Positions 42,774 through 61,507 are shown, counted from the stretch's first letter. The stretch is 64,000 bases of DNA from a virus (IMGVR_UViG_3300009104_000012:9884-73883), one strand, 5' to 3'. Notes: a model not told the origin generated them from the letters alone. Made by a program: numbers and translations.

Positions 42774-43602
42774 TAGCTAATCTCCTTGCACCATAAGTTA
42801 TCATAAAATCTGCACCAGCTCTTTTAAATACTTCGTATGTTTCTCTTAAACTACCAGGCGCACCAATACCTAACCACTCACCCGATACTTGATAAGCACC
42901 ACAAGGTTTGCCTGTTGCTTTCTTTATGCCATAAATTAAATCTATACTTGTCATACCTGGTTTCACCATTAATTCATCTGCACCATCTTGAGCATATTTT
43001 ATAGACCTTTTAATTGCACCTGCTTTATCTGATACATCTAATTGATATGGTCTTTCAATCCCTTTCGGTATCGCCATAGTCTCACGCCAACCTCTATAAA
43101 AAGTAGAACGGAATTTTGTACTATAACTCATCACAGGTATATTACCATCTTTTATTGATTTAATATTCTTAACCGTATTATCTTGACAATCACTTGGTGC
43201 TATTGTAGCACCTGAAGCTGTGTAAATATCTTTTGCTTGTTGTAATAATAATTTATCTGTACGCTCTTGGTCTCCTATAATGCAACAATGTCCGTCCTGT
43301 GTATAAGAACATAAACAAATATCTACATTTAATTTAATAGGTAAAGTTGAAAGACTAGCTGCTACTACACATACTTGGTCAAATTTATGGTCATCAATTC
43401 CTTCTCCAGGTCTCCAACTATCTGATTTTTCTCCTAGTTTAAATTCTGGAACATAGAATAATAAAAACTCTTTAACACCTAGGTCTATATCTTTCTTAAC
43501 TCTTTCGTTAATTTCTTTCCAAGCATTAAAAATTTTATTATCTTCACCTAATCCAGTATCTTTTGTTCTAGGTCCAGCAAATATTGGTTGTATTAATCTC
43601 AT
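42760..43602 (-). CDS. hemB: Divergent porphobilinogen synthase (ALA dehydratase)-family protein
   Basis: LIQPIF, DICLCSYTQDGHC, IAPSD, MSYSTKF, YQLD, GADELMVKPG, AYQVSGE, KRAGAD..ITY. Confidence 0.85.
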   Translation of the reverse strand: MRLIQPIFAGPRTKDTGLGEDNKIFNAWKEINERVKKDIDLGVKEFLLFYVPEFKLGEKSDSWRPGEGIDDHKFDQVCVVAASLSTLPIKLNVDICLCSYTQDGHCCIIGDQERTDKLLLQQAKDIYTASGATIAPSDCQDNTVKNIKSIKDGNIPVMSYSTKFRSTFYRGWRETMAIPKGIERPYQLDVSDKAGAIKRSIKYAQDGADELMVKPGMTSIDLIYGIKKATGKPCGAYQVSGEWLGIGAPGSLRETYEVFKRAGADFMITYGARRLANDIR

Positions 43603-44708
43603 CTTATTATATCAATCTTGTCCATAGTCTGATTGTTCCATACTTCGTTTTCAGTTCTTAATTTATTATCTGTTTTTAATTTGTCATATCTTTTTGTTGC
43701 TTTATTCTTCCACCATTTTACAATATTTTCTAATTCAAATTTATCATAGTTTTCACCTTTAATTAACTTATCGGTCTTACCTAATAATATATCTTTGACA
43801 TTTGAGAAACCATAATCTGACATATAAAATCTTTTTTGTGTTGTAATACCTTCTGCCTTTGCCATAGATTTAACAAAGGTATCATAATCACCACTACCTT
43901 TTAATGCTCTCTTAACCATACCAATCATTGCTGTGGTAATTTTTAACTTTCTACTAGAGGCACCTTTATGTACAATATCATCACCTATAATATCTTCAAT
44001 ATAACTTTTTAAATTAAAATAAGTTTCTTCACCTAAAGTTGGTACAAATTTTGACATTGTATCTCCTTTATATCTTAAATATGGTTTCAGTCCATCATAC
44101 ATAGATGTACCTTTTATATTACCATATAAACTTGTAGTTTCAAACAAACAAAATTCTGTATCATATTTCTTATTTAGCATTTCTCTTACTTTATGAGAAC
44201 AACAAATCAATGCCAATAGTTTACCACCAAGATAATTAAAACCAAATGGTTGTACTGGTACTATATTGAAACCCATTATGGCCCTTTTATTAAAGATAGG
44301 TAAATCTGGAGTACCACCCAAATAATTATTTCTTGGTTTAGAATTGATAATAGGCGAACCTAATTTAATAAATCCTATAATAGTATTTGAAGTATTATCT
44401 TTAACAACTAATTTTAATTCTTTACCTGGCGCCTGGTCTGGAGAGAAACTAGCAATCATTTCCAACATTGTATTAAAAGTGGAGTGTTGCATTTCAACCA
44501 CTTGTATATCCATATCTTCAGGTTTAATATTATAATCATTAAACATATCATCTTCCAATCCAAAACCTGGTAGTGATGGTGGAATATTCTTAACTCTTTC
44601 AATCTTTCTCAATCTAAAATAGTCATCTATACGATTCAAACTATCAAAATAATCTCTAAAGATTTTAGAGCAATGTAATGCTTGTTCAACGTTTAGGGTC
44701 TTCATCAT
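43599..44708 (-). CDS. DUF4338/DruA-like (Mom-related GNAT) protein
   Basis: PGKEL...GFIKLGSP, IVPVQPFGFNYLGGKLLALIC, ETTSLYG, SMYDGL. Confidence 0.75.
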   Translation of the reverse strand: MMKTLNVEQALHCSKIFRDYFDSLNRIDDYFRLRKIERVKNIPPSLPGFGLEDDMFNDYNIKPEDMDIQVVEMQHSTFNTMLEMIASFSPDQAPGKELKLVVKDNTSNTIIGFIKLGSPIINSKPRNNYLGGTPDLPIFNKRAIMGFNIVPVQPFGFNYLGGKLLALICCSHKVREMLNKKYDTEFCLFETTSLYGNIKGTSMYDGLKPYLRYKGDTMSKFVPTLGEETYFNLKSYIEDIIGDDIVHKGASSRKLKITTAMIGMVKRALKGSGDYDTFVKSMAKAEGITTQKRFYMSDYGFSNVKDILLGKTDKLIKGENYDKFELENIVKWWKNKATKRYDKLKTDNKLRTENEVWNNQTMDKIDIIR

Positions 44709-44796
44709 TCCACTTCTTTAATAACCATATCGGTAATATATAAACTAATACCATAAATAATATAAAAATTAATCCTACTCCTATCATTTCCATCAT
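44686..44796 (-). CDS. Small membrane protein (36 aa)
   Basis: Manual translation MMEMIGVGLIFILFMVLVYILPIWLLKKWNDEDPKR; ATGA-coupled. Confidence 0.45.
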   Translation of the reverse strand: MMEMIGVGLIFILFMVLVYILPIWLLKKWNDEDPKR

Positions 44797-45335
44797 AATT
44801 CATTCCCCCAATTATCCCAACCATCTACTTGTTGTCGGGCAAATAGTTCTATTCTTGGCAGATCACCTGCCAACTCTATAATTCTTGACCTAACCTCATC
44901 TGGTTTTCTACTATGTTCTCTTCGTTCAGCAACCACTAATCTATCTACATTGGTACCAACTCTATGTGGTTTTCCTTTTGTTGCCAAGATACATATTTCA
45001 GGATTGGCTCTTGTCCATAATCCTGTACCTTTAAAATAATAATTCTTAATTCTATTCTTGTTAGTTTTTATCCAATAAAATCCTACCGTCTTATATTTAA
45101 AACCCCATTTCTCAACAATTGGTATTTGTTTATGTAATAATGGGTCTGTACACCACATAAACAATATACAATCTTTATCTGCAATATCTCCAACTGGTAA
45201 ATCTTCAATCTCTTTCATTGTCATTGTTGGATAATGGTGTATAGGATTTGTTTGTGCCTTATCATTATTCCAATTCTGAAAATGCCAAGGAGGATCGGCA
45301 TAAATTATATTATATTTTTTCTTACTTAATTCCAA
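44793..45335 (-). CDS. MT-A70-family N6-adenine methyltransferase
   Basis: IIYADPPW, LFMW, WGFKYKT, TRANPE, HSRKP, RIELFAR, GWDNWGNE. Confidence 0.92.
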   Translation of the reverse strand: MELSKKKYNIIYADPPWHFQNWNNDKAQTNPIHHYPTMTMKEIEDLPVGDIADKDCILFMWCTDPLLHKQIPIVEKWGFKYKTVGFYWIKTNKNRIKNYYFKGTGLWTRANPEICILATKGKPHRVGTNVDRLVVAERREHSRKPDEVRSRIIELAGDLPRIELFARQQVDGWDNWGNEL

Positions 45336-47800
45336 AAGTCCTCCAAACTCGCCACTCGTTCATACTTCCAACCAATAGAGTTTAATATAAATCTCAATGG
45401 GTCTAAAAATGTTTTTTCAAATTGAGTTGTATAATCTATATACTCTTGCAACTTAAATTCTCTAGGTAATTTTGTAAGATAACTAATAACACCATACTTA
45501 AATGGATTAGGTTCTTTTAATAATATAAACTTAATCTTATCTCCTTCTTGTATCAATGGATATTTAGCAGTAAGTTTAAGTTGTTTTAAATAATGATTGT
45601 ATATTAAAGACCCTTTAACGTGTATTGGACAACTCTTCTGAAATATATTACTAGCGTCTGAATATTTTTTAAGATTATTACAAGACCTTGGAAAAGCAAT
45701 CGCTTCTGGTGGTAGTCCTTCAAATTCATTTTTAAACTTATCAACAAAATTAATTAAATCTGGTTCTTCCTTCTTCATAATAATATCAATTGCTTCTTTA
45801 ATTCTTTTTCTACAAATTGCTGGTGTTGAAGATTTAACTGCCTCAATTCCCATAATTTTCATTTTAGGTTCAGCATATCTAACGCCTTCACTATCATATA
45901 CATTTAACATATATCTTTTCTTTGATACCCATATACCTTTATCAGCAATAACTTCTCTTGCCATTTCCATTTTTTGGTCAAAAGCATTTGTATATTCTGC
46001 AAGTTCTTTATAACACTTATCAATATATGGTTCAAATTGTTTTTCACACGCCTTGTTTAAAAATTCAACTACTTGGTCTTTTGATTTATTACCACATATT
46101 TTTTCTACTAACTTATCTAAACACACATAAATTGAATCTGTATCAGACGCAACTATATAATCGTGGTCATCTGTTTTTAATAAATGATTTAAATAATCGT
46201 TCATCTTATTCTCAATAAATTTAATAACATACTGACCTCCAGTAGTTATCGCTGTCGCTTGTCTTACATCATAGTATCTGAAAAATTGGTTACCAATAGC
46301 ACCATAGGCACTATTCAATGCAATCTTTCTTGACCATTGTATATTATGGAATCTACTTACCTTTTTTAATAAAGACTTCTCTTTTGTTTTTTCATATTCT
46401 TGTCTTGCTTTAATTTCTTTTTGTTTAAATTTAACTCGTTCTTTATACATTGTCTCCATCATATTAGCAAGAAAACCTTGACTATCGGTTTTAAACAACG
46501 CACCATTTGGAGTTATACACGCACCTTCTTTTTTAAGATAACTTAAATCTGATTTTTTATTTAATAAATTACTTACAGAAACTCCATTACCTTTCATACC
46601 AATAATTTTTTCAGGTGAAATATTATATTGCATAATTAAATGTGGATACAAACTATTTAAATCAAATGACACTACCCACTTATGCATACCAACCTGTGGA
46701 TCTTTTACATATGCACCAATATATTTTGTATCTTTACTATGTTCTTCTCTAGGTGGTACAGCAATCTTATTTTTTAATAAGTGATTATAAATTAAAGTAT
46801 CCCAAGTTCTAACTTGACTAAACACATCTGAATAATTTACTTTAGCGTCATACGCCATAGTTAAGACTAGTTCAATTAAACCAAGTTTATCTTCTAGTCT
46901 ATCCACTATTTCAACATCTTGAATATTATAATCTATAAAAGATTGTAAATCTTTAGTGTACCATTCTTTAAATGTATCATAAGGGTTATCATCTTTCTTT
47001 TCGCCTAGTTCTACTTGACCAATCCAATCCAATCTATAACTCTCTTGTCTTGTTGGAATATATTTTGTATATAAATCCAAATAATCTAACATTGCAATAC
47101 CAACCACATTGTATACCGTTTGTGGTCTACCTCTTACTTCAACCGTTTCTTGTTCAACTATATTCCAAGGTGATAATTTTCTTATTACTTTTTCATCTGT
47201 TAATAATTTAATTCTATTGCATAGATATGGTAAATCAAAAAACTTTGTATTCCAACCTGTAATAACATCTGGATAATTTTTCATCCAGAATTTCATAAAC
47301 TCCATTATTAAAACTTTTTCATTACTACATTTAATATAGGTTACATCTTTTCTATCTGTTTTAAAATCACCAATACCCCAAGTTATAATCTGTTTGTTAG
47401 AGGCATTTTTAACCGTAATACATATTAACTCTTCTATAGGATTTTGTACATCTGGAAATCCATCTTCACAGGTTGTTTCTATATCTAATGTAAAAATGGA
47501 AATAAATTCTTTAGACCATTCAATTGTTTCTGGATATTCAGCTGAAATATATTGATATTGAAATCTATCTAAACCAAATAATGGAGCACCACTATATGAT
47601 TTTTTAAATTCTCTTGCTCTTGAAATACTATTAAAGTTTACAGGTTTTAAATTTTGACCTTGTAAAGTTTTCCAATCTCCATTACCTAATACATAAAGAG
47701 TTGGATTAAAATCTATCTTCTCTTGGAAAGACTTGTTTCTTTCAATACCACGGACTAGTAATTTACCTCTATGTTCAATAACTGATTTATAAAAATTCAC
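45326..47800 (-). CDS. T4 gp43-like family B DNA polymerase
   Basis: DIET exonuclease, SFDLNSLYP, KIALNSAYG, SDTDS, C-terminal clamp motif SLEDFW. Confidence 0.97.
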   Translation of the reverse strand: MNFYKSVIEHRGKLLVRGIERNKSFQEKIDFNPTLYVLGNGDWKTLQGQNLKPVNFNSISRAREFKKSYSGAPLFGLDRFQYQYISAEYPETIEWSKEFISIFTLDIETTCEDGFPDVQNPIEELICITVKNASNKQIITWGIGDFKTDRKDVTYIKCSNEKVLIMEFMKFWMKNYPDVITGWNTKFFDLPYLCNRIKLLTDEKVIRKLSPWNIVEQETVEVRGRPQTVYNVVGIAMLDYLDLYTKYIPTRQESYRLDWIGQVELGEKKDDNPYDTFKEWYTKDLQSFIDYNIQDVEIVDRLEDKLGLIELVLTMAYDAKVNYSDVFSQVRTWDTLIYNHLLKNKIAVPPREEHSKDTKYIGAYVKDPQVGMHKWVVSFDLNSLYPHLIMQYNISPEKIIGMKGNGVSVSNLLNKKSDLSYLKKEGACITPNGALFKTDSQGFLANMMETMYKERVKFKQKEIKARQEYEKTKEKSLLKKVSRFHNIQWSRKIALNSAYGAIGNQFFRYYDVRQATAITTGGQYVIKFIENKMNDYLNHLLKTDDHDYIVASDTDSIYVCLDKLVEKICGNKSKDQVVEFLNKACEKQFEPYIDKCYKELAEYTNAFDQKMEMAREVIADKGIWVSKKRYMLNVYDSEGVRYAEPKMKIMGIEAVKSSTPAICRKRIKEAIDIIMKKEEPDLINFVDKFKNEFEGLPPEAIAFPRSCNNLKKYSDASNIFQKSCPIHVKGSLIYNHYLKQLKLTAKYPLIQEGDKIKFILLKEPNPFKYGVISYLTKLPREFKLQEYIDYTTQFEKTFLDPLRFILNSIGWKYERVASLEDFWN

Positions 47801-48602
47801 TTAAATTGCCTTCCGCTTTATACTTTGATATGTTCTTCCTATTATACACCATTTCTTTCGATAAGTCAAATGGCATTTTCTTTGTTTCTTTGTACGAAGA
47901 AGTTCCACTCATCCACGACTTCACCCACCAAATCAAATCGGTATGTTTTGGGTATTTTAAGTTCCAAGTAACCGTTGACTTTTTTAAATTTTTTCGGTCT
48001 TTCGGTGTCATTGGATAGATATATCTAAATTGTTTACCCTTCACTCGGTTCAATTTTAATTCTTTAAGTTGTTTTGGGTTTGGTCTATGACCGTATTTTA
48101 AACCTTCTTTATTTGGTAATTGTCCTTGTAAAGTTCTAGGGTGTACTTTCTCTCCTGTTTCGGTAACATAAGTATCTGTTATAGAAAATCCACCATATAA
48201 AAAATTAGCTGCCTGATATACATAGCCAGGTTTGCCCACAATACCATCTGCCCAAGTATAAAGATATTTAACATCTGTATTTTGTTTTAACCATTTAATT
48301 GATAGTGATAGTAATTGAGATTCAGAATTTCTAGGCATAGAATCATCCATACACATCTTGCCTATTTCTAGGTAATCTTTTGTATCTAATTTTGGAAATA
48401 ATTTTTGTATAGTATGTTTTGGTCTTGTACCCCAACCAAAGGTAATAACTCCAACTAATGTATCATATGAATCTACTGGAAACTTTTTGTTTCTTACAAA
48501 GCAACCTAGATAATGCTTAGTGAGTCTCGGCATAACAGCCGAGTAATGGCGTTTAGCAACGAATTCAGCTGCTGTTATTTTGTGTAAAGGTTTTATTATC
48601 AT
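47787..48602 (-). CDS. Mom-family adenine-modifying GNAT enzyme
   Basis: KRHYS, GVITFG, EIGKMC...PRNSESQLLS, YTWAD, GYVYQAANFLYGG, KFRYIY-like motif. Confidence 0.85.
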   Translation of the reverse strand: MIIKPLHKITAAEFVAKRHYSAVMPRLTKHYLGCFVRNKKFPVDSYDTLVGVITFGWGTRPKHTIQKLFPKLDTKDYLEIGKMCMDDSMPRNSESQLLSLSIKWLKQNTDVKYLYTWADGIVGKPGYVYQAANFLYGGFSITDTYVTETGEKVHPRTLQGQLPNKEGLKYGHRPNPKQLKELKLNRVKGKQFRYIYPMTPKDRKNLKKSTVTWNLKYPKHTDLIWWVKSWMSGTSSYKETKKMPFDLSKEMVYNRKNISKYKAEGNLSEFL

Positions 48603-48922: not shown

Positions 48923-48925
48923 TCA

Positions 48926-51127: not shown

Positions 51128-51519
51128 TTTCTTTTTCTCCCACCTTTTTCAAGGTTCAATTTAATATTTTCAAGTTGGTCATTTGTTAGTATGCTTAAAG
51201 CCTCTTTTGCTTTTGAATTACTATAATCATAATACTCTTTTACTAATTCAAGGTCTTTGACTTTCTTTTGTGTAAGCCATCTACCACCAAATCGCCTTCT
51301 CTCTCTTATACTATTTATAAAATAGTCAAATTGCATTTTCTTTGGGAGAAAATGGTAACCGTTCATTTCATTGGAATGCATTATGGTATCATAAAAAGAA
51401 GATAGACACCTGTTAATAATAAATGATGGATATTTCTTTTCCCAAGTAAGGTCATCTGAATCCATTAACCGTTTCTTGGTTATATTAATTGCATTTAAAT
51501 AATCTTTTAGTTCGTACAT
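51124..51519 (-). CDS. Clamp loader small subunit (gp62)
   Basis: YPSFIINRCLS, NEMN, QFDY, VKEYYDYS..KA. Confidence 0.92.
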   Translation of the reverse strand: MYELKDYLNAINITKKRLMDSDDLTWEKKYPSFIINRCLSSFYDTIMHSNEMNGYHFLPKKMQFDYFINSIRERRRFGGRWLTQKKVKDLELVKEYYDYSNSKAKEALSILTNDQLENIKLNLEKGGRKRK

Positions 51520-52085
51520 ATCTTCTTAATAAAAATTAACTTCTTATTCTCACCTGTTGGTTTAACATACAAAGATTTCAACTCTTCTTTACTATGCCAT
51601 TTCATAGATACTGCTTTATGTTTAGGTAGACCTGCAGTTTCGCCAATCATTTTCCAATTATCTGCCTTATAGACAGCACCATTATTACCACCTGCAACAA
51701 AGGTAATTAGGTATTTTAATTCATTCCCATACTTTTCCCGCCAATATGGAATCGCTTGTCTCCTTAATTCTTTTAATACTCTGGTTCCAACATTTTTAAT
51801 CTTTTTCCTCATACAGAACCTCCAATTATTCGCAAAACTATTGAAGTTTTCCTTATATGTTTTGATATCCATACCAACATATTTAAGAATATCCTTTGGT
51901 GGTGGATAGACGGAGGAACCAATTCCTATCATACCAACTGGTTTATCTTGATAAAACACAACCCAATCCACTCTCCGACCAACGGAGGCTGTTGTTGGTA
52001 CGTAACTATGATACTTTGATATAGTCTCTTTAATGTACTCTTTGGATTGATTGTCATTTGCTATTCTTAGCTCGATTGTTTCCAT
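51507..52085 (-). CDS. Short DUF4338/Mom-related GNAT protein
   Basis: KYHSY...GRR...GMIGIGS, NNWRFC, W.EKYG..L..LITFV, GAVYKADNW..IGETAG. Confidence 0.75.
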   Translation of the reverse strand: METIELRIANDNQSKEYIKETISKYHSYVPTTASVGRRVDWVVFYQDKPVGMIGIGSSVYPPPKDILKYVGMDIKTYKENFNSFANNWRFCMRKKIKNVGTRVLKELRRQAIPYWREKYGNELKYLITFVAGGNNGAVYKADNWKMIGETAGLPKHKAVSMKWHSKEELKSLYVKPTGENKKLIFIKKICTN

Positions 52086-54435: not shown

Positions 54436-54464
54436 ATTATATATCAGAAAGCATATAATGTCAA
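54436..54464 (-). promoter_or_regulatory. Consensus sigma70 promoter for gp45
   Basis: TTGACA-N17-TATAAT. Confidence 0.85.
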
Positions 54465-54470
54465 TACTGG

Positions 54471-54980
54471 TTAGTGTAGTTTATGTTTTAAAGTTTCAAG
54501 TATTTTATCTGGTAGAGTTTCAACATATGGGTCTCCGTCTATACCTTGGTCATTAATACCAGGCTCTTCGAACCATTGCTCAACCACTCCATCATTTACA
54601 ACCATTGCATAACGCCAAGAACGCATACCAAACCCTAGGTGTGTTTTGTTTATTAACATACCCATACGTCTAGTAAACCAACCAGAACCATCTGGTATCA
54701 TCTTAACATTATTAATTTGTTGGTCTTCAGCCCAAGCATTCATCACAAACGAATCGTTTACTGATATACAATAAACATCATTACAACCTTTAGTGATAAA
54801 CTCGTCATAGAGTCTTTCAAATTCAGGTAGTTGTTTTGTTGAACAAGTTGGAGTAAAAGCACCAGGCAATGAGAACACTACTACTTTTTTACCATCAAAG
54901 TAATCTTCTGTAGTAACGTTTTTCCACTTACCTAATTCTCTAACTTTAAATACCACACTTGGTAGTTTTTTTCCAATCAT
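54471..54980 (-). CDS. Peroxiredoxin (Prx5 type)
   Basis: SLPGAFTPTCS, SVNDSFVM.AW, RSWRYAM. Confidence 0.93.
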   Translation of the reverse strand: MIGKKLPSVVFKVRELGKWKNVTTEDYFDGKKVVVFSLPGAFTPTCSTKQLPEFERLYDEFITKGCNDVYCISVNDSFVMNAWAEDQQINNVKMIPDGSGWFTRRMGMLINKTHLGFGMRSWRYAMVVNDGVVEQWFEEPGINDQGIDGDPYVETLPDKILETLKHKLH

Positions 54981-54993: not shown

Positions 54994-55067
54994 TGGAGCG
55001 GACACTTGGTACTGCCCCAAGGTCTCGAAGTTGGTAACCTCGCATAATTCTTTTATACTATGTCCGC
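54994..55067 (-). tRNA. Atypical tRNA-Gly, anticodon ACC, encoded CCA
   Basis: GCGGACA TA GTAT AAAAGA ATTAT G CGAGG TTACCAA CTTCG AGAC CTTGG GGCAGTA CCAAG TGTCCGC T CCA: 7-bp acceptor, 5-bp anticodon and T stems, U73. Confidence 0.9.
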
Positions 55068-55074: not shown

Positions 55075-55103
55075 ATAATAACATTTCCTACCAATATTGT
55101 CAA
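55075..55103 (-). promoter_or_regulatory. sigma70 promoter directly upstream of the tRNA
   Basis: TTGACA-N17-TATTAT with TG extension; -10 box ends 7 nt before tRNA G1. Confidence 0.75.
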
Positions 55104-55108
55104 GTCTC

Positions 55109-55154
55109 CTAGGGAGCAGTAGGGTCCACGCTAGCTTCCCCTACCACTCACTAG
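55109..55154 (-). ncRNA. Candidate small hairpin RNA
   Basis: GAGTGGTAGGG/CCCTACTGCTC stem with 14-nt loop GAAGCTAGCGTGGA; own promoter; GC-rich; no ORF. Confidence 0.5.
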
Positions 55155-55156
55155 CC

Positions 55157-55185
55157 ATTATAACGTAAAAAAGGCGGAGAGTCAA
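55157..55185 (-). promoter_or_regulatory. sigma70 promoter embedded in the hsp20 terminator
   Basis: TTGACT-N17-TATAAT. Confidence 0.75.
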
Positions 55186-55196
55186 GTCTCCGCCTT
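55167..55196 (-). terminator. Intrinsic terminator after hsp20
   Basis: AAGGCGGAGA-CTTGAC-TCTCCGCCTT-TTTT. Confidence 0.85.
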
Positions 55197-55680: not shown

Positions 55681-55684
55681 AATT

Positions 55685-55708
55685 AACCTCCTTTTATTAA
55701 GCAAAGTT
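55685..55708 (-). promoter_or_regulatory. ROSE-like RNA thermometer
   Basis: AACUUUGCUU-AAUAA-AAGGAGGUU: UUGCU pairs over the SD with a bulged G. Confidence 0.7.
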
Positions 55709-55787
55709 ATCGTTTCCGAGAGCCCACAATGGCACTCTCTAAATGGTATATAATCATTATTTATAAGATTACAAGCCATTATAATCA

Positions 55788-55807
55788 GGGGGTGCCTTAG
55801 CACCCCC
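55788..55807. repeat. GC-rich hairpin repeat copy 1
   Basis: GGGGGTGC-CTTA-GCACCCCC; 19/20 identical to 56316-56335. Confidence 0.8.
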
Positions 55808-55928
55808 CTAGCGACGCCGACTTTATTATTCTTTGATAATGGGTGTCGGTCGGTACCCCTTTCTACGCTGTTAAGGTCTTATGAATTGCCTTAACTATAA
55901 TATATATACATCAAACAAGGCGTAGAAA
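55808..55928 (-). ncRNA. Candidate structured RNA between rpsU and hsp20
   Basis: Several stems: TTTCTACGC/GCGTAGAAA, GTTAAGG/CCTTAAC, CGACCGAC/GTCGGCGTCG, ATTAT/ATAAT; no ORF. Confidence 0.45.
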
Positions 55929-55930
55929 AA

Positions 55931-56137
55931 CTATAAATCTCTTAATTCTTTAAGCTTTTGCTTCTTCTTCCAATTACGAATCATTTCCTTCTTTTTTCTT
56001 TGTTTTTTTGTGGAAGGCTTTTCATAATATTGACGCATACGTAACTCTTTAAAAAGACCATCTTTTTGGAGTTTCTTTTTTAAAACTCTCATAGCCTTTT
56101 CAACGTTACCGCCTCTTACTTCTACCGTTATTGTCAT
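55931..56137 (-). CDS. rpsU: 30S ribosomal protein bS21
   Basis: VEVRGGNVEKAMRVLKKKLQKDG..KELR.RQYYEKPS. Confidence 0.93.
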   Translation of the reverse strand: MTITVEVRGGNVEKAMRVLKKKLQKDGLFKELRMRQYYEKPSTKKQRKKKEMIRNWKKKQKLKELRDL

Positions 56138-56292
56138 AATATTTTTATTAAAATTACTACTTGAAGACCTAATACAACTATTGGTACAATGGTTCTAATT
56201 AGTTCCATTATATGGTTGTATTCATCTAATTTTTTTTCTAAAGCTAATCTCTTATTATTTCTCTTCATATATTCTGTATAAAAATCACTCAT
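56134..56292 (-). CDS. Small membrane protein
   Basis: Start moved to MSDFY after AAGGA; C-terminal TM. Confidence 0.55.
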   Translation of the reverse strand: MSDFYTEYMKRNNKRLALEKKLDEYNHIMELIRTIVPIVVLGLQVVILIKIL

Positions 56293-56315
56293 TATTTCCT
56301 TCTGGTAGTTTAATC

Positions 56316-56335
56316 GGGGGTGCCTAAGCACCCCC
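56316..56335. repeat. GC-rich hairpin repeat copy 2
   Basis: GGGGGTGC-CTAA-GCACCCCC. Confidence 0.8.
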
Positions 56336-56359
56336 TTTGGACTACACTATGAATAAGTT

Positions 56360-57607
56360 TTAGATGTGAGCAGAATTACCATCTGAATCATATTCAGATT
56401 GGTTATCCTCGTCTTCATCTGCCTCATTATTATCGGCGTCCATTTGAGAATTAATTTCCTCTTGTCTCTTCTGTTCAAGTATTTGATCAACACTTGCACC
56501 AGCGTCCACTTTGGTATATAATTCTACAAACGAATTCTTTGTGTCTTCATCAAACCTATTAGTACATAACTGAATAGCTTTAACTTTATCACCAAAGATT
56601 GCATATGCTTGAACAATATGTACCAATCTTCTAGTTGATATAATTTCATCTACTCCGCCATCAAAATAAGTTTTTCTGATAACATCAGCCCAAGTTGTTA
56701 GTTTTTCAACAAACTTAACATCTGATTTTCCAGCTGCTTTTAATTCATTATTCAGAATTTTTTGTTCTGTTTTTACAGCAGGATATTTCTGTTCAAAGGT
56801 TACTGGAAATCTTTCCAAAAACGCTTCGTTAAGTATGTTAGTTCCGATAAACTTACCACTTTCACTACCTTGTCCTTTTGTATTGGCAGTAGCGATAACT
56901 TGGAAACCATCTTTTGGTTTCACAAACTTGTTTATCTTTTTAACATAAACACCTGAACCTTCTAATATCGGTTGTAAACACATAATTTTATTAGAAGCAA
57001 GGTCAATTTCATCTAACAATAAAAGAGCACCTCTTTCCATTGCTTCGATAACTGGTCCGTTTTGCCAAACCGTCTGACCATCTTTTAATCTGAATCCGCC
57101 TAAAAGGTCGTCTTCATCTGTTTCAATTGTAATGTTAACCCTAATCAGTTCTTTTTTAGCTTCGGCAGCTGCCTGTATAACAGACATTGTTTTACCGTTA
57201 CCTGAAAGTCCTGTAATAAAAATAGGATAAAACTTATTAGATTTTACAATTGATCTAATATCACTATGGTTACCAAAAGATACGAAAGTTTTAAATTTAT
57301 TAGGAACAATATTTCCTTCTAAACTAGAAACTACATAAGCAGCTTCTGTATCAATCTTCTCTTCTGGAATTTCTACTGATTTTGTTTCAGTAGTATTTTT
57401 AGGTTGAACAACTATGTCCTCACCTTTTAAAGGCAATTTAAAAATAGATTTTCCTACTTTATAACCTTTATTTTTTATTAACCATTGAGGAGCATACTTA
57501 CAACCAAACTTTTTGTTTGCTTGTTTTAACTCGTCAACCGTTAACTCAGCTTTGTTAAACATCTTAAAAGCGTGTTTTACAAAGTCTTGTTGTTTCACAT
57601 TTAACAT
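56360..57607 (-). CDS. CobS-like MoxR AAA+ ATPase
   Basis: GLSGNGKT, DEDDLLGG, LLLDEID, TANTKGQG, AFLERF, ISTRR; start moved to MLNVK. Confidence 0.9.
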   Translation of the reverse strand: MLNVKQQDFVKHAFKMFNKAELTVDELKQANKKFGCKYAPQWLIKNKGYKVGKSIFKLPLKGEDIVVQPKNTTETKSVEIPEEKIDTEAAYVVSSLEGNIVPNKFKTFVSFGNHSDIRSIVKSNKFYPIFITGLSGNGKTMSVIQAAAEAKKELIRVNITIETDEDDLLGGFRLKDGQTVWQNGPVIEAMERGALLLLDEIDLASNKIMCLQPILEGSGVYVKKINKFVKPKDGFQVIATANTKGQGSESGKFIGTNILNEAFLERFPVTFEQKYPAVKTEQKILNNELKAAGKSDVKFVEKLTTWADVIRKTYFDGGVDEIISTRRLVHIVQAYAIFGDKVKAIQLCTNRFDEDTKNSFVELYTKVDAGASVDQILEQKRQEEINSQMDADNNEADEDEDNQSEYDSDGNSAHI

Positions 57608-57638
57608 AATGTTAGTCCTTTCATCATTTATACCAGCC

Positions 57639-57666
57639 ATCCTAAAGGAATTGGTCTGGAAGTCAA
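57639..57666 (-). promoter_or_regulatory. Early-type promoter
   Basis: TTGACT-N16-TAGGAT, same -10 variant as 60101. Confidence 0.55.
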
Positions 57667-57706
57667 GCCATTATTTTTACTAGAAATACAGGCTTTATTC
57701 AACATA

Positions 57707-60088
57707 CTACGCTACTTGTTCGATAAATTTATTCAAAACTACCCTTGATTGTATTCGATTCGACATACTTTTTGAGAATAGTCTTCTTATATCGCCTTTT
57801 TTAGCGCCGTCTTTTAATTGAGATAAATCTACCTGTTGAACATCCATAGATTTACCATTTAATAGATAGTATTCATTATAACCTCTTTTAGAAATACATA
57901 ATGATTTATCTTTTAAAAACTTTTTTCTTTGTACCTGACGGTCTCTAACTTTAATAGTTCTACCATTTTTATTTGTCTCATATTCTGGTACAAATCTATC
58001 AAAAGACCATCTTCTTAAATCTTTTAAGATATAAAAACCAACCGTTTTTACACCATATTTTTTTCTTATCATATTTAATAATATTGTAGTAACGTCATCT
58101 GAAGAGGAGTGATAATAAAATGGAGTTTCTGGTTCTGACCACAATTTCTTACCATCTTTAATAACAATTTTATCTCCTTCACCAGAACATTCTTCCAATT
58201 TAGTACCTACTTTACCAGTTGTGTCATCTATTTTATAACCCATATTATAGTAGTTCATACCATTTGAACCACCATCTGTTAAAGTTATAAAAGTCATTTT
58301 CTCAATACTATATTTCTTTTTAAATTCTGGTACCAATTGTAAACAAGCAGCTAAAGATTCATTTAAAGGTGTTGAAGACAAATAATAATCATTTGGAATT
58401 GGAATTGAATTACCTGGATGTGGATCTGGTTGTGCAATTCCTCTTCTGTATGCTCTCCAATTATATCTACTATCAAAACTTTCAGCAAGTTGATACATAT
58501 ACATACACGCTTTATCTAATTCTGATTTTTTCATACGGTGACTCAATATATTTACTAGGTTAAAAAATCCCATAGACATATCACCTTCTTTATATTTGAA
58601 TTGGTGTTTACCTAATTCTATTCTTTGTTGTCTGTTTAACCAACCTTCACCTCTTTTATTGTCATTAAACATATAAACTTCAAAAGGTATTCCAATTCTT
58701 TCACAAAACCATACAAGGTTTAATAATTGATGAACCGTTTTAGCAACTACGTCTGACATTGAACCTGACCAGTCCAATAACATCATCATACCGTGGTTCT
58801 TATCTGTTGGTAATACCGTTAATCTTTTAAAAATATCTTCTGAAAATTTATAGTCTCTTAATTTTAATGGGTCTATAATACCTGTTTTATCTGTAGCAGC
58901 TCTTTTATAAGCACTAGCAGATTTTCTCATTTCAAATTCTTTAACCAAATACATAACGGTTTTAGAATTGTCTTTTTTAAATCTTTTATAATCTCTTTCC
59001 AACCAGTTGTAATATGTTTTATACTCTTGATGGCAATAATCTTTAGTCAAATAATGGTTATTACTTCTAGTCATTTCAGACATAAACTTTTTATAACTAG
59101 TCATACACTCATTTAAATCAACTTTAGGAATTGAACAATATCTATAACTAGTTTTTTTATCTAATAATTTTTCTGTACTTTGGTCAAAACTATCCTGTGT
59201 AATAGCTCTTAATGGATTTGGTGCCTTATTAACAGCAACATCATCACCGCCTCTACCACCTGGATTTCCTTCTTGACCTTTTTTAAGTTCTTTTTTCTTC
59301 TCTTCTTCTGATTTTTCTTCTTTAGATTCTGTACCATCTTCACCATCTTTATCTTTGTTTTCTTCTTTATCCTGTTTTGATTCACCAGGCATATCAATTT
59401 CTTTACCATCTTCCGTATCACCTTCTTTTTCTTTAGGCTCTGCTTGGTCATAATTCATTGCAATTGGATGGTCGTCAAAATCTGGTAACTTTTTAAGTTT
59501 TTCCATTTCTTTTTTAGCTTTACCATATAACTCTTCAGCAAGTTTTAATACATCTTTAAATGTTTTTAAAGCTTTAACTTTTTTAATAATTTTATGGTCA
59601 TCTTTACTAAAGATAAATTGTTTTCTAAAAGTTGATTTGAAATATAAGTTTATCTTATCAATAAACATTAAGTTTTTATTAAGGTCACCTACTGGTGTTA
59701 ATCCAAAAAAGTCTTGCGAGTCTAATATCTCAAAGGCGTTCATATAATTTCTTACTACACCTGGATATTTCTTTTTAATTTTTTCGTCTATTCTACAATC
59801 TTCTAATACATTTACATATGCTCTGAAATCTTTATCATTTAATTTTTCCCAAGATTTAGTTGGTGTCCATAAAGCGTGAGCACATTCGTGAGCAATTAAC
59901 ATATCGTAAACATCACCAGATTTTACTTTAAAAATTGGTAGAGTTAATATACGGTTCTTTACATCAAAAGAAGCCGTCTTAACATTGTTATGTTGTACGG
60001 TAATATTTTCTGTTGCGATTAATTTTGCTAATTGTGATTTAGCGTCTATATTTAAATTTTCTGATTTGTTCAATGTGTTGTCCTTCAT
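57707..60088 (-). CDS. CobT-like metallopeptidase plus vWA protein (MoxR partner)
   Basis: TASFD..R.L.LP, HECAH, NVLED.RI, acidic linker, LDWSGSM, STPLNE, LTDG (MIDAS). Confidence 0.88.
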   Translation of the reverse strand: MKDNTLNKSENLNIDAKSQLAKLIATENITVQHNNVKTASFDVKNRILTLPIFKVKSGDVYDMLIAHECAHALWTPTKSWEKLNDKDFRAYVNVLEDCRIDEKIKKKYPGVVRNYMNAFEILDSQDFFGLTPVGDLNKNLMFIDKINLYFKSTFRKQFIFSKDDHKIIKKVKALKTFKDVLKLAEELYGKAKKEMEKLKKLPDFDDHPIAMNYDQAEPKEKEGDTEDGKEIDMPGESKQDKEENKDKDGEDGTESKEEKSEEEKKKELKKGQEGNPGGRGGDDVAVNKAPNPLRAITQDSFDQSTEKLLDKKTSYRYCSIPKVDLNECMTSYKKFMSEMTRSNNHYLTKDYCHQEYKTYYNWLERDYKRFKKDNSKTVMYLVKEFEMRKSASAYKRAATDKTGIIDPLKLRDYKFSEDIFKRLTVLPTDKNHGMMMLLDWSGSMSDVVAKTVHQLLNLVWFCERIGIPFEVYMFNDNKRGEGWLNRQQRIELGKHQFKYKEGDMSMGFFNLVNILSHRMKKSELDKACMYMYQLAESFDSRYNWRAYRRGIAQPDPHPGNSIPIPNDYYLSSTPLNESLAACLQLVPEFKKKYSIEKMTFITLTDGGSNGMNYYNMGYKIDDTTGKVGTKLEECSGEGDKIVIKDGKKLWSEPETPFYYHSSSDDVTTILLNMIRKKYGVKTVGFYILKDLRRWSFDRFVPEYETNKNGRTIKVRDRQVQRKKFLKDKSLCISKRGYNEYYLLNGKSMDVQQVDLSQLKDGAKKGDIRRLFSKSMSNRIQSRVVLNKFIEQVA

Positions 60089-60100
60089 AATTCTATGGCT

Positions 60101-60129
60101 ATCCTATCAGCTCTTGGCGTGAAAGTCAA
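60101..60129 (-). promoter_or_regulatory. Early-type promoter
   Basis: TTGACT-N17-TAGGAT. Confidence 0.65.
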
Positions 60130-60141
60130 GAAAAAAATGCC

Positions 60142-60171
60142 AAAAAAAAGCCACGGAAACCGTAGCTTTTT
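60142..60171. terminator. Probable bidirectional terminator
   Basis: A-tract, GCCACGG-AAA-CCGTAGC, T-tract. Confidence 0.6.
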
Positions 60172-60196
60172 AAACTTTTTTTGTTCTGGTAATGTT

Positions 60197-61507
60197 CTAT
60201 CGGCCCACCTGGACTAGATATTTCTGCTTGGTTGATGGCCAATCCATATAAATTATATCATCATAAAAATGCGATTCGCTGGATACTCTATTAGTTTTAA
60301 TAAGATTATCTATTCGTTTTCTAGCGTATTTGGATTTCCATAATTCTGATAATGCTTCTGTAGTATTATCAAATGCTGGTATTAATTTATCTTCGGTTAT
60401 CTCTTCTCTTAAAAATTCATTAGTATTAGTATATAATTGACCAAAGTATATGCCTCTAGCGTGTTCAGATTTAATTAAATTCTTTGGTATAGATAGTCTA
60501 TTAAATGTAAAGTTATGAGACCTATTTCTATGGTCTCTTTTATGTGGTTGTCCACTAGGTTTCTTTGCAAAATACCATTCAAAGTATTTTCTAGTATGAT
60601 TTTTTAACAACCAATTCTGTATCATTTTTCTAGTTGTTAATTCAGGTTCATATGATACACTACCTGCTGTCCAACCCATTTTCTTCCAATGTTTTAATCT
60701 ATCGTATTGTGATAATGGTATTGCTTTTGTTTTACCATATAAAGATGTAGTGGTTACACCAACCAATGTATCTCCATATTGTTTCTTCCAAGTTTTAGCA
60801 ACTACATCTGAAAGACATAATAATGCTAACAATTTACCACCTACTAAATTATAACCTAAAGGTTGTACTGGTACAATGGTACTACCGATTGTTGTATGAT
60901 TAATCATCTTTTCAGTTTTTCTTTTTCTGTCCCAACCAATATGTTTATCTCTTGGTGTTAAATCTAAAAAGTCAGAAGACATACAAGTTATGCCTAAAAA
61001 TTTACCTGTCTTTTTGTCTTGTATAATAAAGTTTAAATTTCTACCTATATTACTATTGTTTTTCATAGTAGATAAAAATGTTCTTAATGCATTCCATATA
61101 GCAGGCATTTTCTTACCTGTAATAGATTTTAAAGTATCATCATCTGTCCATATAACCTCTGGCTCTAAATTACTATACTCCATTGGGTCTGTTGGATTCC
61201 AAAAATTGTTTTTTACTTCTTGAATTAAAGCACCTTGTTCGGCGTCTTTTAGGGCAGGTTTATCATCAAAGAAACTATTAGTTTCTACGGTTGGATATCT
61301 ATTATGTACTTCACACCATTTTTGATATAAAGTATATTCTTTTACATCCATTGCTGATACAAAGGACAAATCTTTTATTATTGTCTCTCTTAATGTATCA
61401 TCTTCTATAGTAGGTATCTTATCCAAATCTGTATTCTTTTGGAATTCAGACCATTGGTCCTCTATGAATTTAATGTATTCTGGTGAATCTGTACTTTGTG
61501 CTGTCAT
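60197..61507 (-). CDS. DUF4338/DruA-like (Mom-related GNAT) protein
   Basis: IGRNL, RDKHIGW, IVPVQPLGYNLVGGKLLALL, W...YGD.L..VTTTSLYG, SQYDRL..WKKMG.TAG; start at MTAQ downstream of promoter. Confidence 0.8.
   Translation of the reverse strand: MTAQSTDSPEYIKFIEDQWSEFQKNTDLDKIPTIEDDTLRETIIKDLSFVSAMDVKEYTLYQKWCEVHNRYPTVETNSFFDDKPALKDAEQGALIQEVKNNFWNPTDPMEYSNLEPEVIWTDDDTLKSITGKKMPAIWNALRTFLSTMKNNSNIGRNLNFIIQDKKTGKFLGITCMSSDFLDLTPRDKHIGWDRKRKTEKMINHTTIGSTIVPVQPLGYNLVGGKLLALLCLSDVVAKTWKKQYGDTLVGVTTTSLYGKTKAIPLSQYDRLKHWKKMGWTAGSVSYEPELTTRKMIQNWLLKNHTRKYFEWYFAKKPSGQPHKRDHRNRSHNFTFNRLSIPKNLIKSEHARGIYFGQLYTNTNEFLREEITEDKLIPAFDNTTEALSELWKSKYARKRIDNLIKTNRVSSESHFYDDIIYMDWPSTKQKYLVQVGR

What the first reader, a model, noticed from the sequence alone, without database searches (positions are those of the whole stretch)
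43599..61507. Candidate tRNA-dependent DNA hypermodification system: dedicated non-ribosomal tRNA-Gly plus four Mom/DUF4338 enzymes
SEEN: four Mom/DUF4338-type GNAT proteins (43599-44708, 47787-48602, 51507-52085, 60197-61507), three of them inserted in replisome operons, and an atypical tRNA-Gly (54994-55067) with its own promoter. KNOWN: Mu Mom makes N6-carbamoylmethyl (glycinamide) adenine. From memory, and to be verified, recent biochemistry reports Gly-tRNA(Gly) as its donor. Staphylococci use special tRNA-Gly species with altered D/T loops and weak EF-Tu binding as donors for the GNAT-fold FemXAB transferases. INFERENCE: the phage encodes a tRNA that host GlyRS charges but translation ignores, channelling glycine to a paralogous set of DNA aminoacyl-transferases (anti-restriction). 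This would be notable in a host lineage known for conditional glycine auxotrophy (SAR11). I know of no description of this pairing.
Basis: partly seen in the sequence, partly recalled or inferred. Interest (0 to 1): 0.9.

Follow-up and report, generated by a model that had tools for sequence, protein, structure and literature searches.

The report
Hidden phage glycine tRNA, Mom-like enzymes
An ocean phage of the SAR11 type carries a real but previously overlooked glycine tRNA with an unusual shape, plus four enzymes related to phage Mu's DNA-modifying enzyme Mom; the tRNA does not travel with those enzymes across related phages, so it is more likely a translation tRNA than their private glycine donor.

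Summary
The window is the replication module of an uncultured pelagimyophage (T4-like). It encodes one true Mom (PF25680, E 9.5e-52), two DruA/DUF4338 proteins whose GNAT core is structurally closest to Mu Mom (Z 10.0), and a 192-aa GNAT that links the two families by profile comparison.

The element at 54994-55067(-) is a real 74-nt tRNA-Gly(ACC). It has its own promoter, an encoded CCA and the full GlyRS identity set. All four stems covary (9 of 21 pairs change on both sides). ARAGORN, Rfam and published annotations all miss it.

The "dedicated donor" reading is only partly supported.
- The tRNA occurs in Mom-less relatives: Mosig, HTVC008M and about 10 contigs spanning the Mom slot.
- Mom occurs without it in Melnitz.
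- Cyanophages carry DUF4338-like genes without it.
- Its wobble base toggles between A and U across the family, with a weak matching trend in codon usage.
- GGU is 64.5% of the phage's Gly codons.
- Its odd T-loop (GGCAGUA) is the normal T-loop of alphaproteobacterial tmRNA.

In its favour, it shares G55 and a weak 51-63 pair with staphylococcal non-proteogenic tRNA-Gly. tRNA-Gly genes also sporadically abut Mom or DUF4338 genes in other phage lineages.

This scan has noted similar pairings before on other DNA.

The parts
54994..55067 (-). 74-nt non-canonical tRNA-Gly(ACC) with encoded CCA. Acceptor GCGGACA/UGUCCGC, discriminator U73, D loop AAAAGAA, anticodon loop UUACCAA, T stem C49-G65/U50-A64/U51-A63, T loop GGCAGUA.
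   Evidence: Fold; ARAGORN -mt only; covariation in 11 homologues; covariance model R1 scores 96 bits on the window's own record
55075..55103 (-). Sigma-70-type promoter (TTGACA, 17 nt, TATTAT, with extended TG). It places the transcription start at or next to G1 of the tRNA. No terminator separates the tRNA from the peroxiredoxin gene.
   Evidence: the promoter is conserved upstream of family members
47787..48602 (-). Mom-family GNAT (271 aa) directly downstream of gp43. Belongs to the K111/I151 subfamily. Accessory gene, absent from this slot in Mosig and HTVC008M.
   Evidence: absence in relatives
43599..44708 (-). DruA/DUF4338 family protein no. 1 (369 aa, phrog_19197), upstream of the Dam-like methyltransferase and gp43. 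A homologue sits next to the polymerase gene in HTVC008M.
60197..61531 (-). DruA/DUF4338 family protein no. 2 (probable ATG start at 61507, 436 aa). GNAT core at residues 118-388. Core gene of pelagimyophages.
   Evidence: AlphaFold2 model pLDDT 92.4; best structural match Mu Mom 8BV8, Z 10.0, 169 of 202 residues aligned
51507..52085 (-). 192-aa short GNAT intermediate between Mom and DUF4338. It lies between gp62 and a 2OG-Fe(II) oxygenase in the clamp-loader operon.
   Evidence: a DUF4338-like gene occupies the same gp44-gp62 slot in cyanomyophages
45326..47800 (-). gp43 DNA polymerase (context: overlaps the start of Mom)
54471..54980 (-). Peroxiredoxin gene, 13 nt downstream of the tRNA's CCA and probably co-transcribed with it
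55171..55196 (-). Intrinsic terminator of the Hsp20 gene. Its loop holds a TTGACT -35 hexamer of a second upstream promoter.

Best explanation
Two features lie side by side here and are not a dedicated pair.

(1) The tRNA. The RNA is a genuine phage tRNA-Gly. It derives from the T4-type phage tRNA-Gly(UCC), with the same D stem and acceptor end. In the pelagimyophage lineage its elbow was remodelled: the D loop lost GG, and the T loop became GGCAGUA, the alphaproteobacterial tmRNA type. Its wobble base is A or U. It is transcribed from its own early-type promoter, ahead of the gp45 or peroxiredoxin mRNA. Host GlyRS is inferred to charge it, because the identity set is intact. It most likely decodes the phage's GGU-rich messages. 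It is the only tRNA called in the isolate genomes of this lineage. From memory, A34 and U34 are the two wobble bases able to read a whole four-codon box.

(2) The enzymes. The phage carries a set of Mom-related GNAT enzymes. The true Mom is an accessory gene. By homology with Mu Mom it probably moves glycine from Gly-tRNA(Gly) onto N6 of adenine in double-stranded phage DNA as an anti-restriction mark. It could draw on any charged tRNA-Gly in the cell, the phage's own included. The two DUF4338 proteins and the 192-aa GNAT are conserved, replisome-linked genes of marine T4-like phages. They are probably acyl- or aminoacyl-transferases, but their substrate is unknown.

Shown: the family and fold assignments, the RNA structure and its conservation, and the gene distributions. 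Inferred: charging, decoding, and the DNA modification chemistry.
For: - The tRNA is real and under selection.
- The identity elements can be read directly from the sequence and match those listed in PMC7826273.
- Canonical tRNA-Gly(UCC) genes in related phages share the D stem and acceptor end and score 55-58 bits with model R1.
- The tRNA is independent of Mom: Mosig and HTVC008M have the RNA and no Mom; Melnitz has Mom and no such RNA. None of 30 tRNA-bearing loci has Mom or the 192-aa gene.
- Cyanophages with DUF4338-like genes lack the RNA.
- Decoding role: GGT is 64.5% of Gly codons. The family has both ACC and UCC anticodons and never GCC or CCC. ACC loci use more GGT and less GGA than UCC loci, p 0.0018 and 6e-5 per locus, and 0.075 and 0.062 after collapsing to tRNA types.
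- The alphaproteobacterial tmRNA consensus T loop is GGCgGUA, so this loop type works with the translation machinery of the host's class.
- The same T loop occurs in a tRNA-like gene with a CAU anticodon (L317) and in one with UCA (L248), so it is not specific to glycine.
- Mom assignment. Mom's donor: PMC13219725.
- DUF4338 is a Mom-like GNAT.
Against: - The tRNA lacks G18G19 and T54-Psi55. It has G55 and U50-A64/U51-A63 in all 19 sequence types. These are the same kinds of departure that mark the staphylococcal non-proteogenic tRNA-Gly, which bind EF-Tu poorly (PMC7826273).
- Every complete genome that has the tRNA also has DUF4338 genes.
- tRNA-Gly genes directly abut Mom or DUF4338 genes in several other phage lineages.
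- The codon-usage trend is only marginal once near-duplicates are collapsed, and the window itself (ACC anticodon, GGA 23-25%) runs against it.
- U or A at position 34 could simply reflect AT mutation bias.
- The window's Mom has K at R111 and I at R151, two residues essential in Mu Mom, so its chemistry may differ.
- No expression, charging or DNA-adduct data exist.
Confidence: 0.55

Rival explanations
1. The odd-elbow tRNA-Gly is charged by host GlyRS but kept out of translation. It serves as a private glycine donor for the Mom-related GNATs (Mom, the two DUF4338 proteins and the 192-aa GNAT), which hypermodify phage DNA.
For: - Mom uses Gly-tRNA(Gly).
- G55 and the A/U pair at 51-63 parallel the staphylococcal non-proteogenic tRNA-Gly, whose determinants for the transferase lie in the D and T arms.
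- All tRNA-bearing complete genomes carry DUF4338.
- The DUF4338 core is closest to Mom.
- tRNA-Gly genes sit 7-70 nt from Mom or DUF4338 genes in other lineages: L173, L175-179, L181, L198/L204, L318, L320/321.
Against: - There is no co-occurrence with Mom.
- DUF4338-like genes exist without the RNA in three complete cyanophage genomes and in 77 of 80 distant DUF4338 loci within 4 kb.
- In the Mom tree, adjacency to Ala, Gly, Thr or His tRNAs is intermixed among near-identical Moms of one clade. That points to a location inside tRNA arrays, not to donor pairing.
- Mu Mom accepts all host tRNA-Gly isoacceptors.
- The T loop is tmRNA-like and not specific to glycine.
- The anticodon loop is strictly kept, with only A or U at position 34.
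- In the window the tRNA is 5-6 kb from any of the four genes.
Confidence: 0.15
2. The tRNA is a counter-defence or take-over device: a replacement or decoy that stays functional when host tRNA-Gly is cleaved or depleted during infection. Its altered elbow and wobble base would let it escape a host tRNA-targeting nuclease.
For: - It is the only tRNA in these genomes, is strongly conserved, and is driven by an early-type promoter.
- The loops are altered while the charging determinants are kept.
- That phage tRNAs can evade anticodon nucleases is general knowledge recalled from memory; it was not tested here.
Against: - No tRNA-targeting system was identified here.
- The anticodon loop, the usual nuclease target, is otherwise a canonical U33-NCC-A37 loop.
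- The changes sit in the elbow.
Confidence: 0.1
3. The element is mainly a cis-acting tRNA-like 5' leader. RNase P or RNase Z processing at this structure would mature or stabilise the downstream gp45 or peroxiredoxin mRNA, and the released RNA would have no role of its own.
For: - It is always promoter-proximal and lies 13-30 nt ahead of the next start codon, with no terminator between.
- In other phages Mom's ATG lies 7-11 nt after a tRNA 3' end.
Against: - A processing signal has no need for invariant GlyRS identity elements, an intact NCC anticodon loop or an encoded CCA.
- In HTVC008M and L135 the gene sits at other loci, ahead of other genes.
Confidence: 0.07

Closest known systems
Bacteriophage Mu Mom (Pfam PF25680; PDB 8BV8; Silva et al. 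2026, PMC13219725)
   Same: The window's 271-aa protein is a clear family member (176 bits; E 2.7e-16 to 8BV8). It keeps H58, Y59, N121, S124, D149, G153 and Y159. The DUF4338 GNAT core has Mom as its best structural match (Z 10.0, rmsd 3.8 A, 169 of 202 residues).
   Different: The window's Mom belongs to a subfamily (marine T4-like phages, Melnitz, a Psychrobacter phage) with K at R111 and I at R151, both essential in Mu Mom. It sits in a T4-type replisome operon and has no Com regulator. The DUF4338 proteins show no direct sequence similarity to Mom (hhalign probability 0.8%). They carry long extra N- and C-terminal helical parts, and their Z-score margin over generic GNATs is under 1.
Staphylococcal non-proteogenic tRNA-Gly (NP1-3) feeding FmhB/FemA/FemB (Rietmeyer et al., PMC7826273)
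   Same: Gly identity set kept, G at position 55 in place of Psi55, U50-A64 and an A/U pair at 51-63, and departures concentrated in the D and T arms.
   Different: - It is a different evolutionary lineage: derived from T4-type phage tRNA-Gly, with a tmRNA-like GGCAGUA loop rather than UGC/UGU.
- The wobble base varies between A and U.
- It is the only tRNA of the phage.
- No Fem-type partner is present.
- No measurement of EF-Tu or ribosome binding exists.
T4-type phage tRNA-Gly(UCC) genes of marine T4-like phages
   Same: The acceptor end GCGG...CCGC-U-CCA, the D stem GUAU/AUUAC, the length and cloverleaf, and the promoter-proximal position are shared. Canonical copies score 55-58 bits with the model (L173, L177, L181).
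   Different: The canonical copies have D loop AAUGG, T loop UUCGAUU and G51-C63, and standard tools detect them. The window's type has none of these and is missed by ARAGORN, Rfam and, according to PMC7029224, tRNAscan-SE.
Alphaproteobacterial two-piece tmRNA tRNA-like domain (Rfam RF01849), including the Melnitz phage ssrA
   Same: The 7-nt T loop is identical to Melnitz (GGCAGUA) and matches the family consensus GGCgGUA, closed by the same two G-C pairs.
   Different: The window's RNA is a complete four-arm tRNA with an anticodon loop and Gly identity, not Ala identity. It has no mRNA-like part. The apparent D-arm match in Melnitz is that gene's promoter.
DruA of type I Druantia (Pfam PF14236)
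   Same: Both long window proteins pass the Pfam cut-off, and the conserved core (QPxGxN...GGKL, TTSLYG) is shared.
   Different: No DruB-E genes are present. The genes are phage-encoded and replisome-linked. No function is known for DruA, and no held paper links it to Mom or GNATs.

Membership tests
Mom (PF25680) | Profile match above the curated cut-off | tested here: met
   47787-48602: 176 bits against a cut-off of 27.1; phrog_1384 at E 3e-41; 8BV8 at E 2.7e-16
Mom (PF25680) | Active-site residues shown to matter in Mu Mom (H58, Y59, R111, S124, D149, R151, Y159) | tested here: inconclusive
   Alignment A5: H58, Y59, S124, D149 and Y159 are kept. R111 is K and R151 is I in the whole marine subfamily, which has K at position 154. 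In Mu, R111K is drastically reduced and R151A is dead.
Mom (PF25680) | Gly-tRNA(Gly)-dependent modification of N6-adenine in dsDNA | not testable with these tools
   Biochemistry only; inferred from homology
DruA / DUF4338 (PF14236) | Profile match above the curated cut-off | tested here: met
   44.5 and 65 bits against a cut-off of 27. The 192-aa ORF itself does not match, but many of its homologues do, and its profile aligns at 90% probability.
Type I Druantia defence system | DruA encoded together with DruB-DruE (a large helicase) | tested here: not met
   The neighbours are T4-type replisome and auxiliary genes. This is a domain relative, not a Druantia system.
GNAT fold, Mom-like | Structural superposition of the DUF4338 core on Mom and other GNATs | tested here: met
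   Model pLDDT 92.4. VIA-align gives 8BV8 Z 10.0 as the top hit, followed by SpeG and other GNATs at Z 8.2-9.2. The Foldseek list is all GNATs but none reaches E<=1e-3.
Canonical bacterial elongator tRNA (Rfam RF00005) | Cloverleaf with 7-bp acceptor stem, 5-bp anticodon and T stems, 7-nt loops, U33 and R37 | tested here: met
Canonical bacterial elongator tRNA (Rfam RF00005) | Conserved elbow (G18G19, T54-Psi55-C56) and detection by standard models | tested here: not met
   D loop AAAAGAA and T loop GGCAGUA. Standard ARAGORN finds no gene, and there is no Rfam tRNA hit at E<10. File it as a non-canonical tRNA.
tRNA-Gly (bacterial GlyRS substrate) | G1-C72, C2-G71, G3-C70, U73, C35, C36 | tested here: met
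   Read from the sequence and invariant in alignment A1. The identity set is as listed in PMC7826273. Actual charging was not tested.
Non-proteogenic tRNA-Gly (staphylococcal type) | Poor EF-Tu and ribosome binding, and preference by an aminoacyl-transferase | not testable with these tools
   Only sequence parallels are available (G55; U50-A64; A/U at 51-63). The lineage differs, so this is a case of 'may work like', not membership.
Dedicated tRNA-plus-transferase system | Co-occurrence of the RNA with Mom or DUF4338 across phages beyond shared ancestry | tested here: not met
   - RNA without Mom: Mosig, HTVC008M and about 10 contigs.
- Mom without the RNA: Melnitz.
- DUF4338-like genes without the RNA: S-SM2, S-SRM01 and S-SCSM2R.
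- Only sporadic adjacency elsewhere.

The most novel reading that the evidence does not exclude
The remodelled-elbow tRNA-Gly of pelagimyophages is a non-proteogenic glycine carrier. It would be charged by host GlyRS, poorly used by EF-Tu, and preferred by Mom-related GNATs (the core DUF4338 proteins, plus Mom where present) that aminoacylate phage DNA or a replisome component. That would make it a phage counterpart of the staphylococcal NP-tRNA/Fem partition. The sporadic tRNA-Gly-Mom and tRNA-Gly-DUF4338 cassettes in other T4-like phages would be the same system in compact form.
Probability: 0.15. Interest if true: 0.9.

Novelty: new variant of a known kind. Interest (0 to 1): 0.55.

Why it matters
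- Pelagimyophages infect SAR11, the most abundant bacteria in the ocean. Published annotations list their type isolate HTVC008M as having no tRNA.
- This work shows a conserved, covarying tRNA-Gly with a tmRNA-type T loop and an A/U wobble base. Standard tRNA finders miss it, and one isolate record annotates it as a 31-aa protein.
- The work also ties the function-unknown DruA/DUF4338 family to Mom, the only known tRNA-dependent DNA aminoacyl-transferase. The tie rests on a bridging family and on structure. These genes sit in a conserved slot of the replisome operons of marine T4-like phages.
- The hypothesis is now directly testable in cultured systems: HTVC008M and Mosig have the tRNA and DUF4338 but no Mom, and Melnitz has Mom but no such tRNA.
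- If the tRNA turned out to be a private glycine donor, it would be the first viral non-proteogenic tRNA.
- If it decodes, it is a rare natural bacterial-system tRNA with A34 outside tRNA-Arg.

Tried and rejected
- Standard ARAGORN at lowered thresholds and Rfam at E<10 do not call the RNA. This reflects the odd loops; it does not show that no tRNA is there.
- My first two collection patterns required TTACCAA and so wrongly made A34 look invariant. I corrected this with the T-loop-only hits.
- The D-arm resemblance to the Melnitz tmRNA was rejected: that stretch is its promoter -10 region.
- Inosine at position 34 was not seen. The one RNA-library contig covering the tRNA reads T>A at 55035, a UCC relative, not T>C.
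- No RNA holder was listed for the stretch, and the contigs cannot show expression, RNA ends or charging.
- Mom against DUF4338 directly by hhalign was not significant. phmmer of DUF4338 against PDB sequences found nothing. Foldseek gave no match at E<=1e-3.
- The idea that the tRNA next to Mom predicts its donor (Gly or Ala) was rejected. The adjacency types are intermixed among near-identical Moms of one clade.
- A scan of cellular genomes found no Pelagibacterales copy of the tRNA. This used one exact pattern on one genome per species, so absence is not proven.
- The GC-rich hairpin upstream of the tRNA has no exact copy in viral contigs.
- A strict regex for mini tRNA-Gly near distant DUF4338 genes found nothing, but it required an encoded UCCA, which those lineages lack.

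Full report
**What the window is.** All genes between 41 and 64 kb lie on the minus strand of a DNA with about 30% G+C. PHROG and Pfam scans give a T4-type replication module with marine auxiliary genes. The gene order is:
- DUF4338 protein no. 1
- Dam-like methyltransferase
- gp43 polymerase
- Mom
- two small ORFs
- an ATP-grasp protein
- RegA
- gp62
- a 192-aa ORF
- a 2OG-Fe(II) oxygenase
- gp44
- gp45
- peroxiredoxin
- the RNA element
- Hsp20
- CobS
- a peptidase
- DUF4338 protein no. 2

The record is a 73.9-kb IMG/VR contig, about 40% complete. The nearest isolates are the Pelagibacter phages Mosig and HTVC008M and the OM43 phage Melnitz.

**The four proteins.**
- 47787-48602 is an unambiguous Mom: PF25680 at 176 bits, and PDB 8BV8 at E 2.7e-16.
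- The two long proteins pass the DruA/DUF4338 cut-off and are paralogues.
- The 192-aa ORF is below the Pfam thresholds. Its family profile aligns to the Mom clade (84% probability, E 7e-6, over the GNAT core) and to DUF4338 (90%, E 1.5e-6, 168 columns). Mom against DUF4338 directly is not significant. Many of its homologues carry a precomputed PF14236 hit.
- An AlphaFold2 model of DUF4338 no. 2 (pLDDT 92.4) has a GNAT core at residues 118-388. Its best structural match is Mu Mom (Z 10.0, rmsd 3.8 A, 169 of 202 residues). Generic GNATs follow at Z 8.2-9.2. Foldseek lists only GNATs, but none reaches E 1e-3.

"Mom/DUF4338-type GNATs" is therefore a fair description, with a thin margin for Mom over other GNATs.

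An alignment with Mu Mom uses the paper's numbering. It shows that the window's Mom keeps H58, Y59, N121, S124, D149, G153 and Y159. It has K at R111 and I at R151. In Mu, R111K is drastically reduced and R151A is inactive. This K111/I151 subfamily includes Melnitz, a Psychrobacter phage and 1,818 metagenomic proteins.

**The RNA is a real tRNA.** The reverse complement of 54994-55067 reads GCGGACA...UGUCCGC-U-CCA. It folds as a cloverleaf. Standard ARAGORN, Rfam and lowered thresholds miss it; only the mitochondrial mode calls Gly(acc). Homologues were found in Mosig and in many IMG/VR contigs.
- In 11 distinct sequences, 95.7% of pair cells are paired, 9 of 21 pairs change on both sides, and no shuffle or register shift comes near that.
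- The GlyRS identity set (G1-C72, C2-G71, G3-C70, U73, C35, C36; listed in PMC7826273) is invariant.
- A sigma-70-type promoter puts the start at G1. Its -35 hexamer often lies in the loop of the upstream terminator, and this arrangement is conserved.
- The next gene starts 13-30 nt after the CCA.
- The published pelagimyophage survey lists HTVC008M with 0 tRNAs (PMC7029224). The Mosig record annotates a 31-aa CDS over the gene. The tRNA is therefore unrecognised.
- In HTVC008M a diverged copy (77 bits, T loop AGCGUUA) lies at another locus, and standard ARAGORN does call it tRNA-Gly(acc).

**Where the tRNA comes from.** Canonical tRNA-Gly(UCC) genes of related marine T4-like phages share the acceptor end and the D stem and score 55-58 bits with the model. 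They have D loop AAUGG, T loop UUCGAUU and G51-C63. The window's type is a derivative with a remodelled elbow.

Its T loop GGCAGUA is identical to that of the Melnitz two-piece tmRNA. It matches the Rfam alphaproteobacterial tmRNA consensus GGCgGUA. The same loop occurs in a tRNA-like gene with a CAU anticodon (L317) and in a Patescibacteria MAG tRNA with a Gly-type acceptor and a UCA anticodon. The loop is therefore neither specific to glycine nor foreign to translation-linked RNAs of the host's class. No Pelagibacterales genome carried the tRNA by the pattern used.

**Is the tRNA tied to Mom or DUF4338?**

| Genome or contig | This tRNA | Mom | DruA/DUF4338 |
|---|---|---|---|
| Window's contig (about 40% complete) | 1 | 1 | 2 |
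| Mosig (complete) | 1 | 0 | 1 |
| HTVC008M (complete) | 1 | 0 | 2 |
| Melnitz (complete) | none (only its tmRNA scores, 27.5 bits) | 1 | 0 |
| Two contig fragments (G001 and G002, holding L129 and L087) | 1 each | 0 | 1 each |

Further results:
- None of 30 tRNA-bearing loci contains Mom or the 192-aa gene. About 10 of them span the gp43-gp62 interval where both genes lie in the window.
- Of 80 Mom-clade loci, four have the odd-elbow tRNA at the syntenic place. All four carry the UCC version.
- L226 covers the Hsp20-peroxiredoxin-gp45 stretch and has no match to the model.
- Three complete cyanomyophage genomes carry a DUF4338-like gene between gp44 and gp62, the slot of the 192-aa gene here. 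They have no match to the RNA model.

So Mom is an accessory gene. The DUF4338 proteins are core genes of the pelagimyophage lineage, and the clamp-loader slot of the 192-aa gene also holds a DUF4338-like gene in cyanomyophages. The tRNA is a marker of the pelagimyophage lineage.

Their T stem is weak (A49-U65, U50-A64, A51-U63), and the transferase determinants lie in the D and T arms. The window's family has G55, U50-A64 and U51-A63 in all 19 sequence types.

Against it:
- My first searches had forced the ACC anticodon. The unbiased T-loop-only hits show about 24 loci with UCC and about 15 with ACC, never GCC or CCC. The window's acceptor/D-arm variant occurs with both anticodons.
- From memory, unmodified U34 and A34 are the two wobble bases that can read a whole family box. 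This was not checked here.
- GGT is 64.5% of the window's Gly codons.
- ACC loci use more GGT and less GGA than UCC loci: 72.4% and 10.8% against 67.1% and 17.3%, p 0.0018 and 6e-5. After collapsing to 11 and 8 tRNA types, p is 0.075 and 0.062. This is a weak trend in the decoding direction, and the window itself is an outlier.
- One metatranscriptome contig covers a UCC relative at the same promoter-tRNA-gp45 locus. It shows no inosine signature, and it cannot prove expression.

**Adjacency seen elsewhere.** In 20 of 80 Mom-clade loci a tRNA lies within 120 nt of Mom:
- tRNA-Gly(UCC) 7-10 nt away: L173, L175-179, L181.
- A degenerate Gly(UCC)-like RNA 9 nt downstream: L198, L204.
- tRNA-Ala(UGC, G3:U70) 7-11 nt upstream: nine loci.
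- Thr and His tRNA arrays in the rest.

A maximum-likelihood tree puts nearly all of these Moms in one 18-row clade. There, near-identical Moms sit beside different tRNAs. The parsimonious reading is that one phage lineage keeps Mom inside its tRNA array.

In a separate sample of 80 distant DUF4338 loci, 77 have no Gly tRNA within 4 kb. L318 has one tRNA-Gly(UCC) and L320/321 have two in tandem, 25-70 nt upstream of the DUF4338 gene.

Earlier notes of this scan describe similar pairings in other phages. I treat them as leads. My own test finds the pairing real but sporadic.

**Verdict.**
- The most likely account (0.55) is a lineage-specific, unannotated phage tRNA-Gly used for decoding, lying near a set of Mom-related GNATs. 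The true Mom probably glycylates phage DNA from whatever Gly-tRNA is present.
- The dedicated-donor model keeps about 0.15. It rests on the staphylococcal parallels, the universal presence of DUF4338 in tRNA-bearing genomes, and the scattered cassettes.
- No held paper links DruA/DUF4338 with Mom or describes this tRNA.

Noticed in passing
window 54994-55067(-); L145 1484-1901: The tRNA's T loop GGCAGUA with its two closing G-C pairs is identical to that of the Melnitz two-piece tmRNA. It matches the Rfam alphaproteobacterial tmRNA consensus (GGCgGUA). The phage tRNA-Gly may have acquired a tmRNA-type elbow by convergence or by recombination.
   Followed up: partly
L175-L179, L173, L181, L168-L172, L174, L194, L197, L198, L204, L200-L203: In 20 of 80 marine Mom-clade loci a tRNA gene lies within 120 nt of Mom: Gly(UCC) or a Gly-like RNA in 9, Ala(UGC) in 8 by nearest neighbour (L173 also has Ala upstream of Mom), Thr or His in 3. 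Mom's ATG is often 7-11 nt after the tRNA 3' end with no Shine-Dalgarno sequence. The tree shows that the adjacency types are intermixed within one clade.
   Followed up: yes
L318 3858-3930 and L320/L321 3785-3940: In a distant DUF4338 lineage, one tRNA-Gly(UCC) gene or two in tandem, with their own promoter, lie 25-70 nt upstream of the DUF4338 gene. The other 77 loci of that sample have no Gly tRNA within 4 kb.
   Followed up: partly
L317 471-541: A tRNA-like gene with a CAU anticodon and the same GGCAGUA T loop sits directly after a tRNA-Ala in another phage contig. Standard ARAGORN does not call it.
   Followed up: no
L248 3643-3718(-): A Patescibacteria-group MAG contig (6 kb) holds a tRNA with a Gly-type acceptor (GCGG...CCGC-U-CCA), the GGCAGUA T loop and anticodon UCA. 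It may be a UGA-reading glycine tRNA, or the contig may be a phage contig binned with the MAG.
   Followed up: no
window 55104-55155(-): A GC-rich hairpin (-24.9 kcal/mol, z -2.2) lies between the Hsp20 terminator and the tRNA promoter. A second promoter (TTGACT-17-TATAAT, 55185-55157) could transcribe it. Relatives lack this insert, and viral contigs hold no exact copy.
   Followed up: partly
L001 7774-7869 (Mosig_000011): The Mosig GenBank record annotates a 31-aa hypothetical protein over the tRNA gene. In HTVC008M the RefSeq record (L142) lists no feature over the corresponding stretch (record 91140-91213). A published table gives HTVC008M 0 tRNAs.
   Followed up: yes
L233 2698-3756; L234 2701-3759; L236 2704-3825: The cyanomyophages S-SM2, S-SRM01 and S-SCSM2R carry a 352-373-aa DUF4338-like gene between gp44 and gp62. 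Two records call it 'putative cytoplasmic protein' and one calls it 'methylcarbamoylase mom'.
   Followed up: partly
window 54436-54464(-): A perfect 12-of-12 sigma-70 consensus promoter (TTGACA-17-TATAAT) lies directly upstream of gp45, so the sliding-clamp gene has its own strong promoter besides read-through from the tRNA promoter.
   Followed up: no
window 47787-48602(-) and alignment A5: The marine, Melnitz and Psychrobacter Mom subfamily has IGKM and WADGIVGK where Mu has LNRM and FADERCGR. It thus lacks both arginines essential in Mu Mom (R111, R151) but keeps a lysine at positions 111 and 154.
   Followed up: partly
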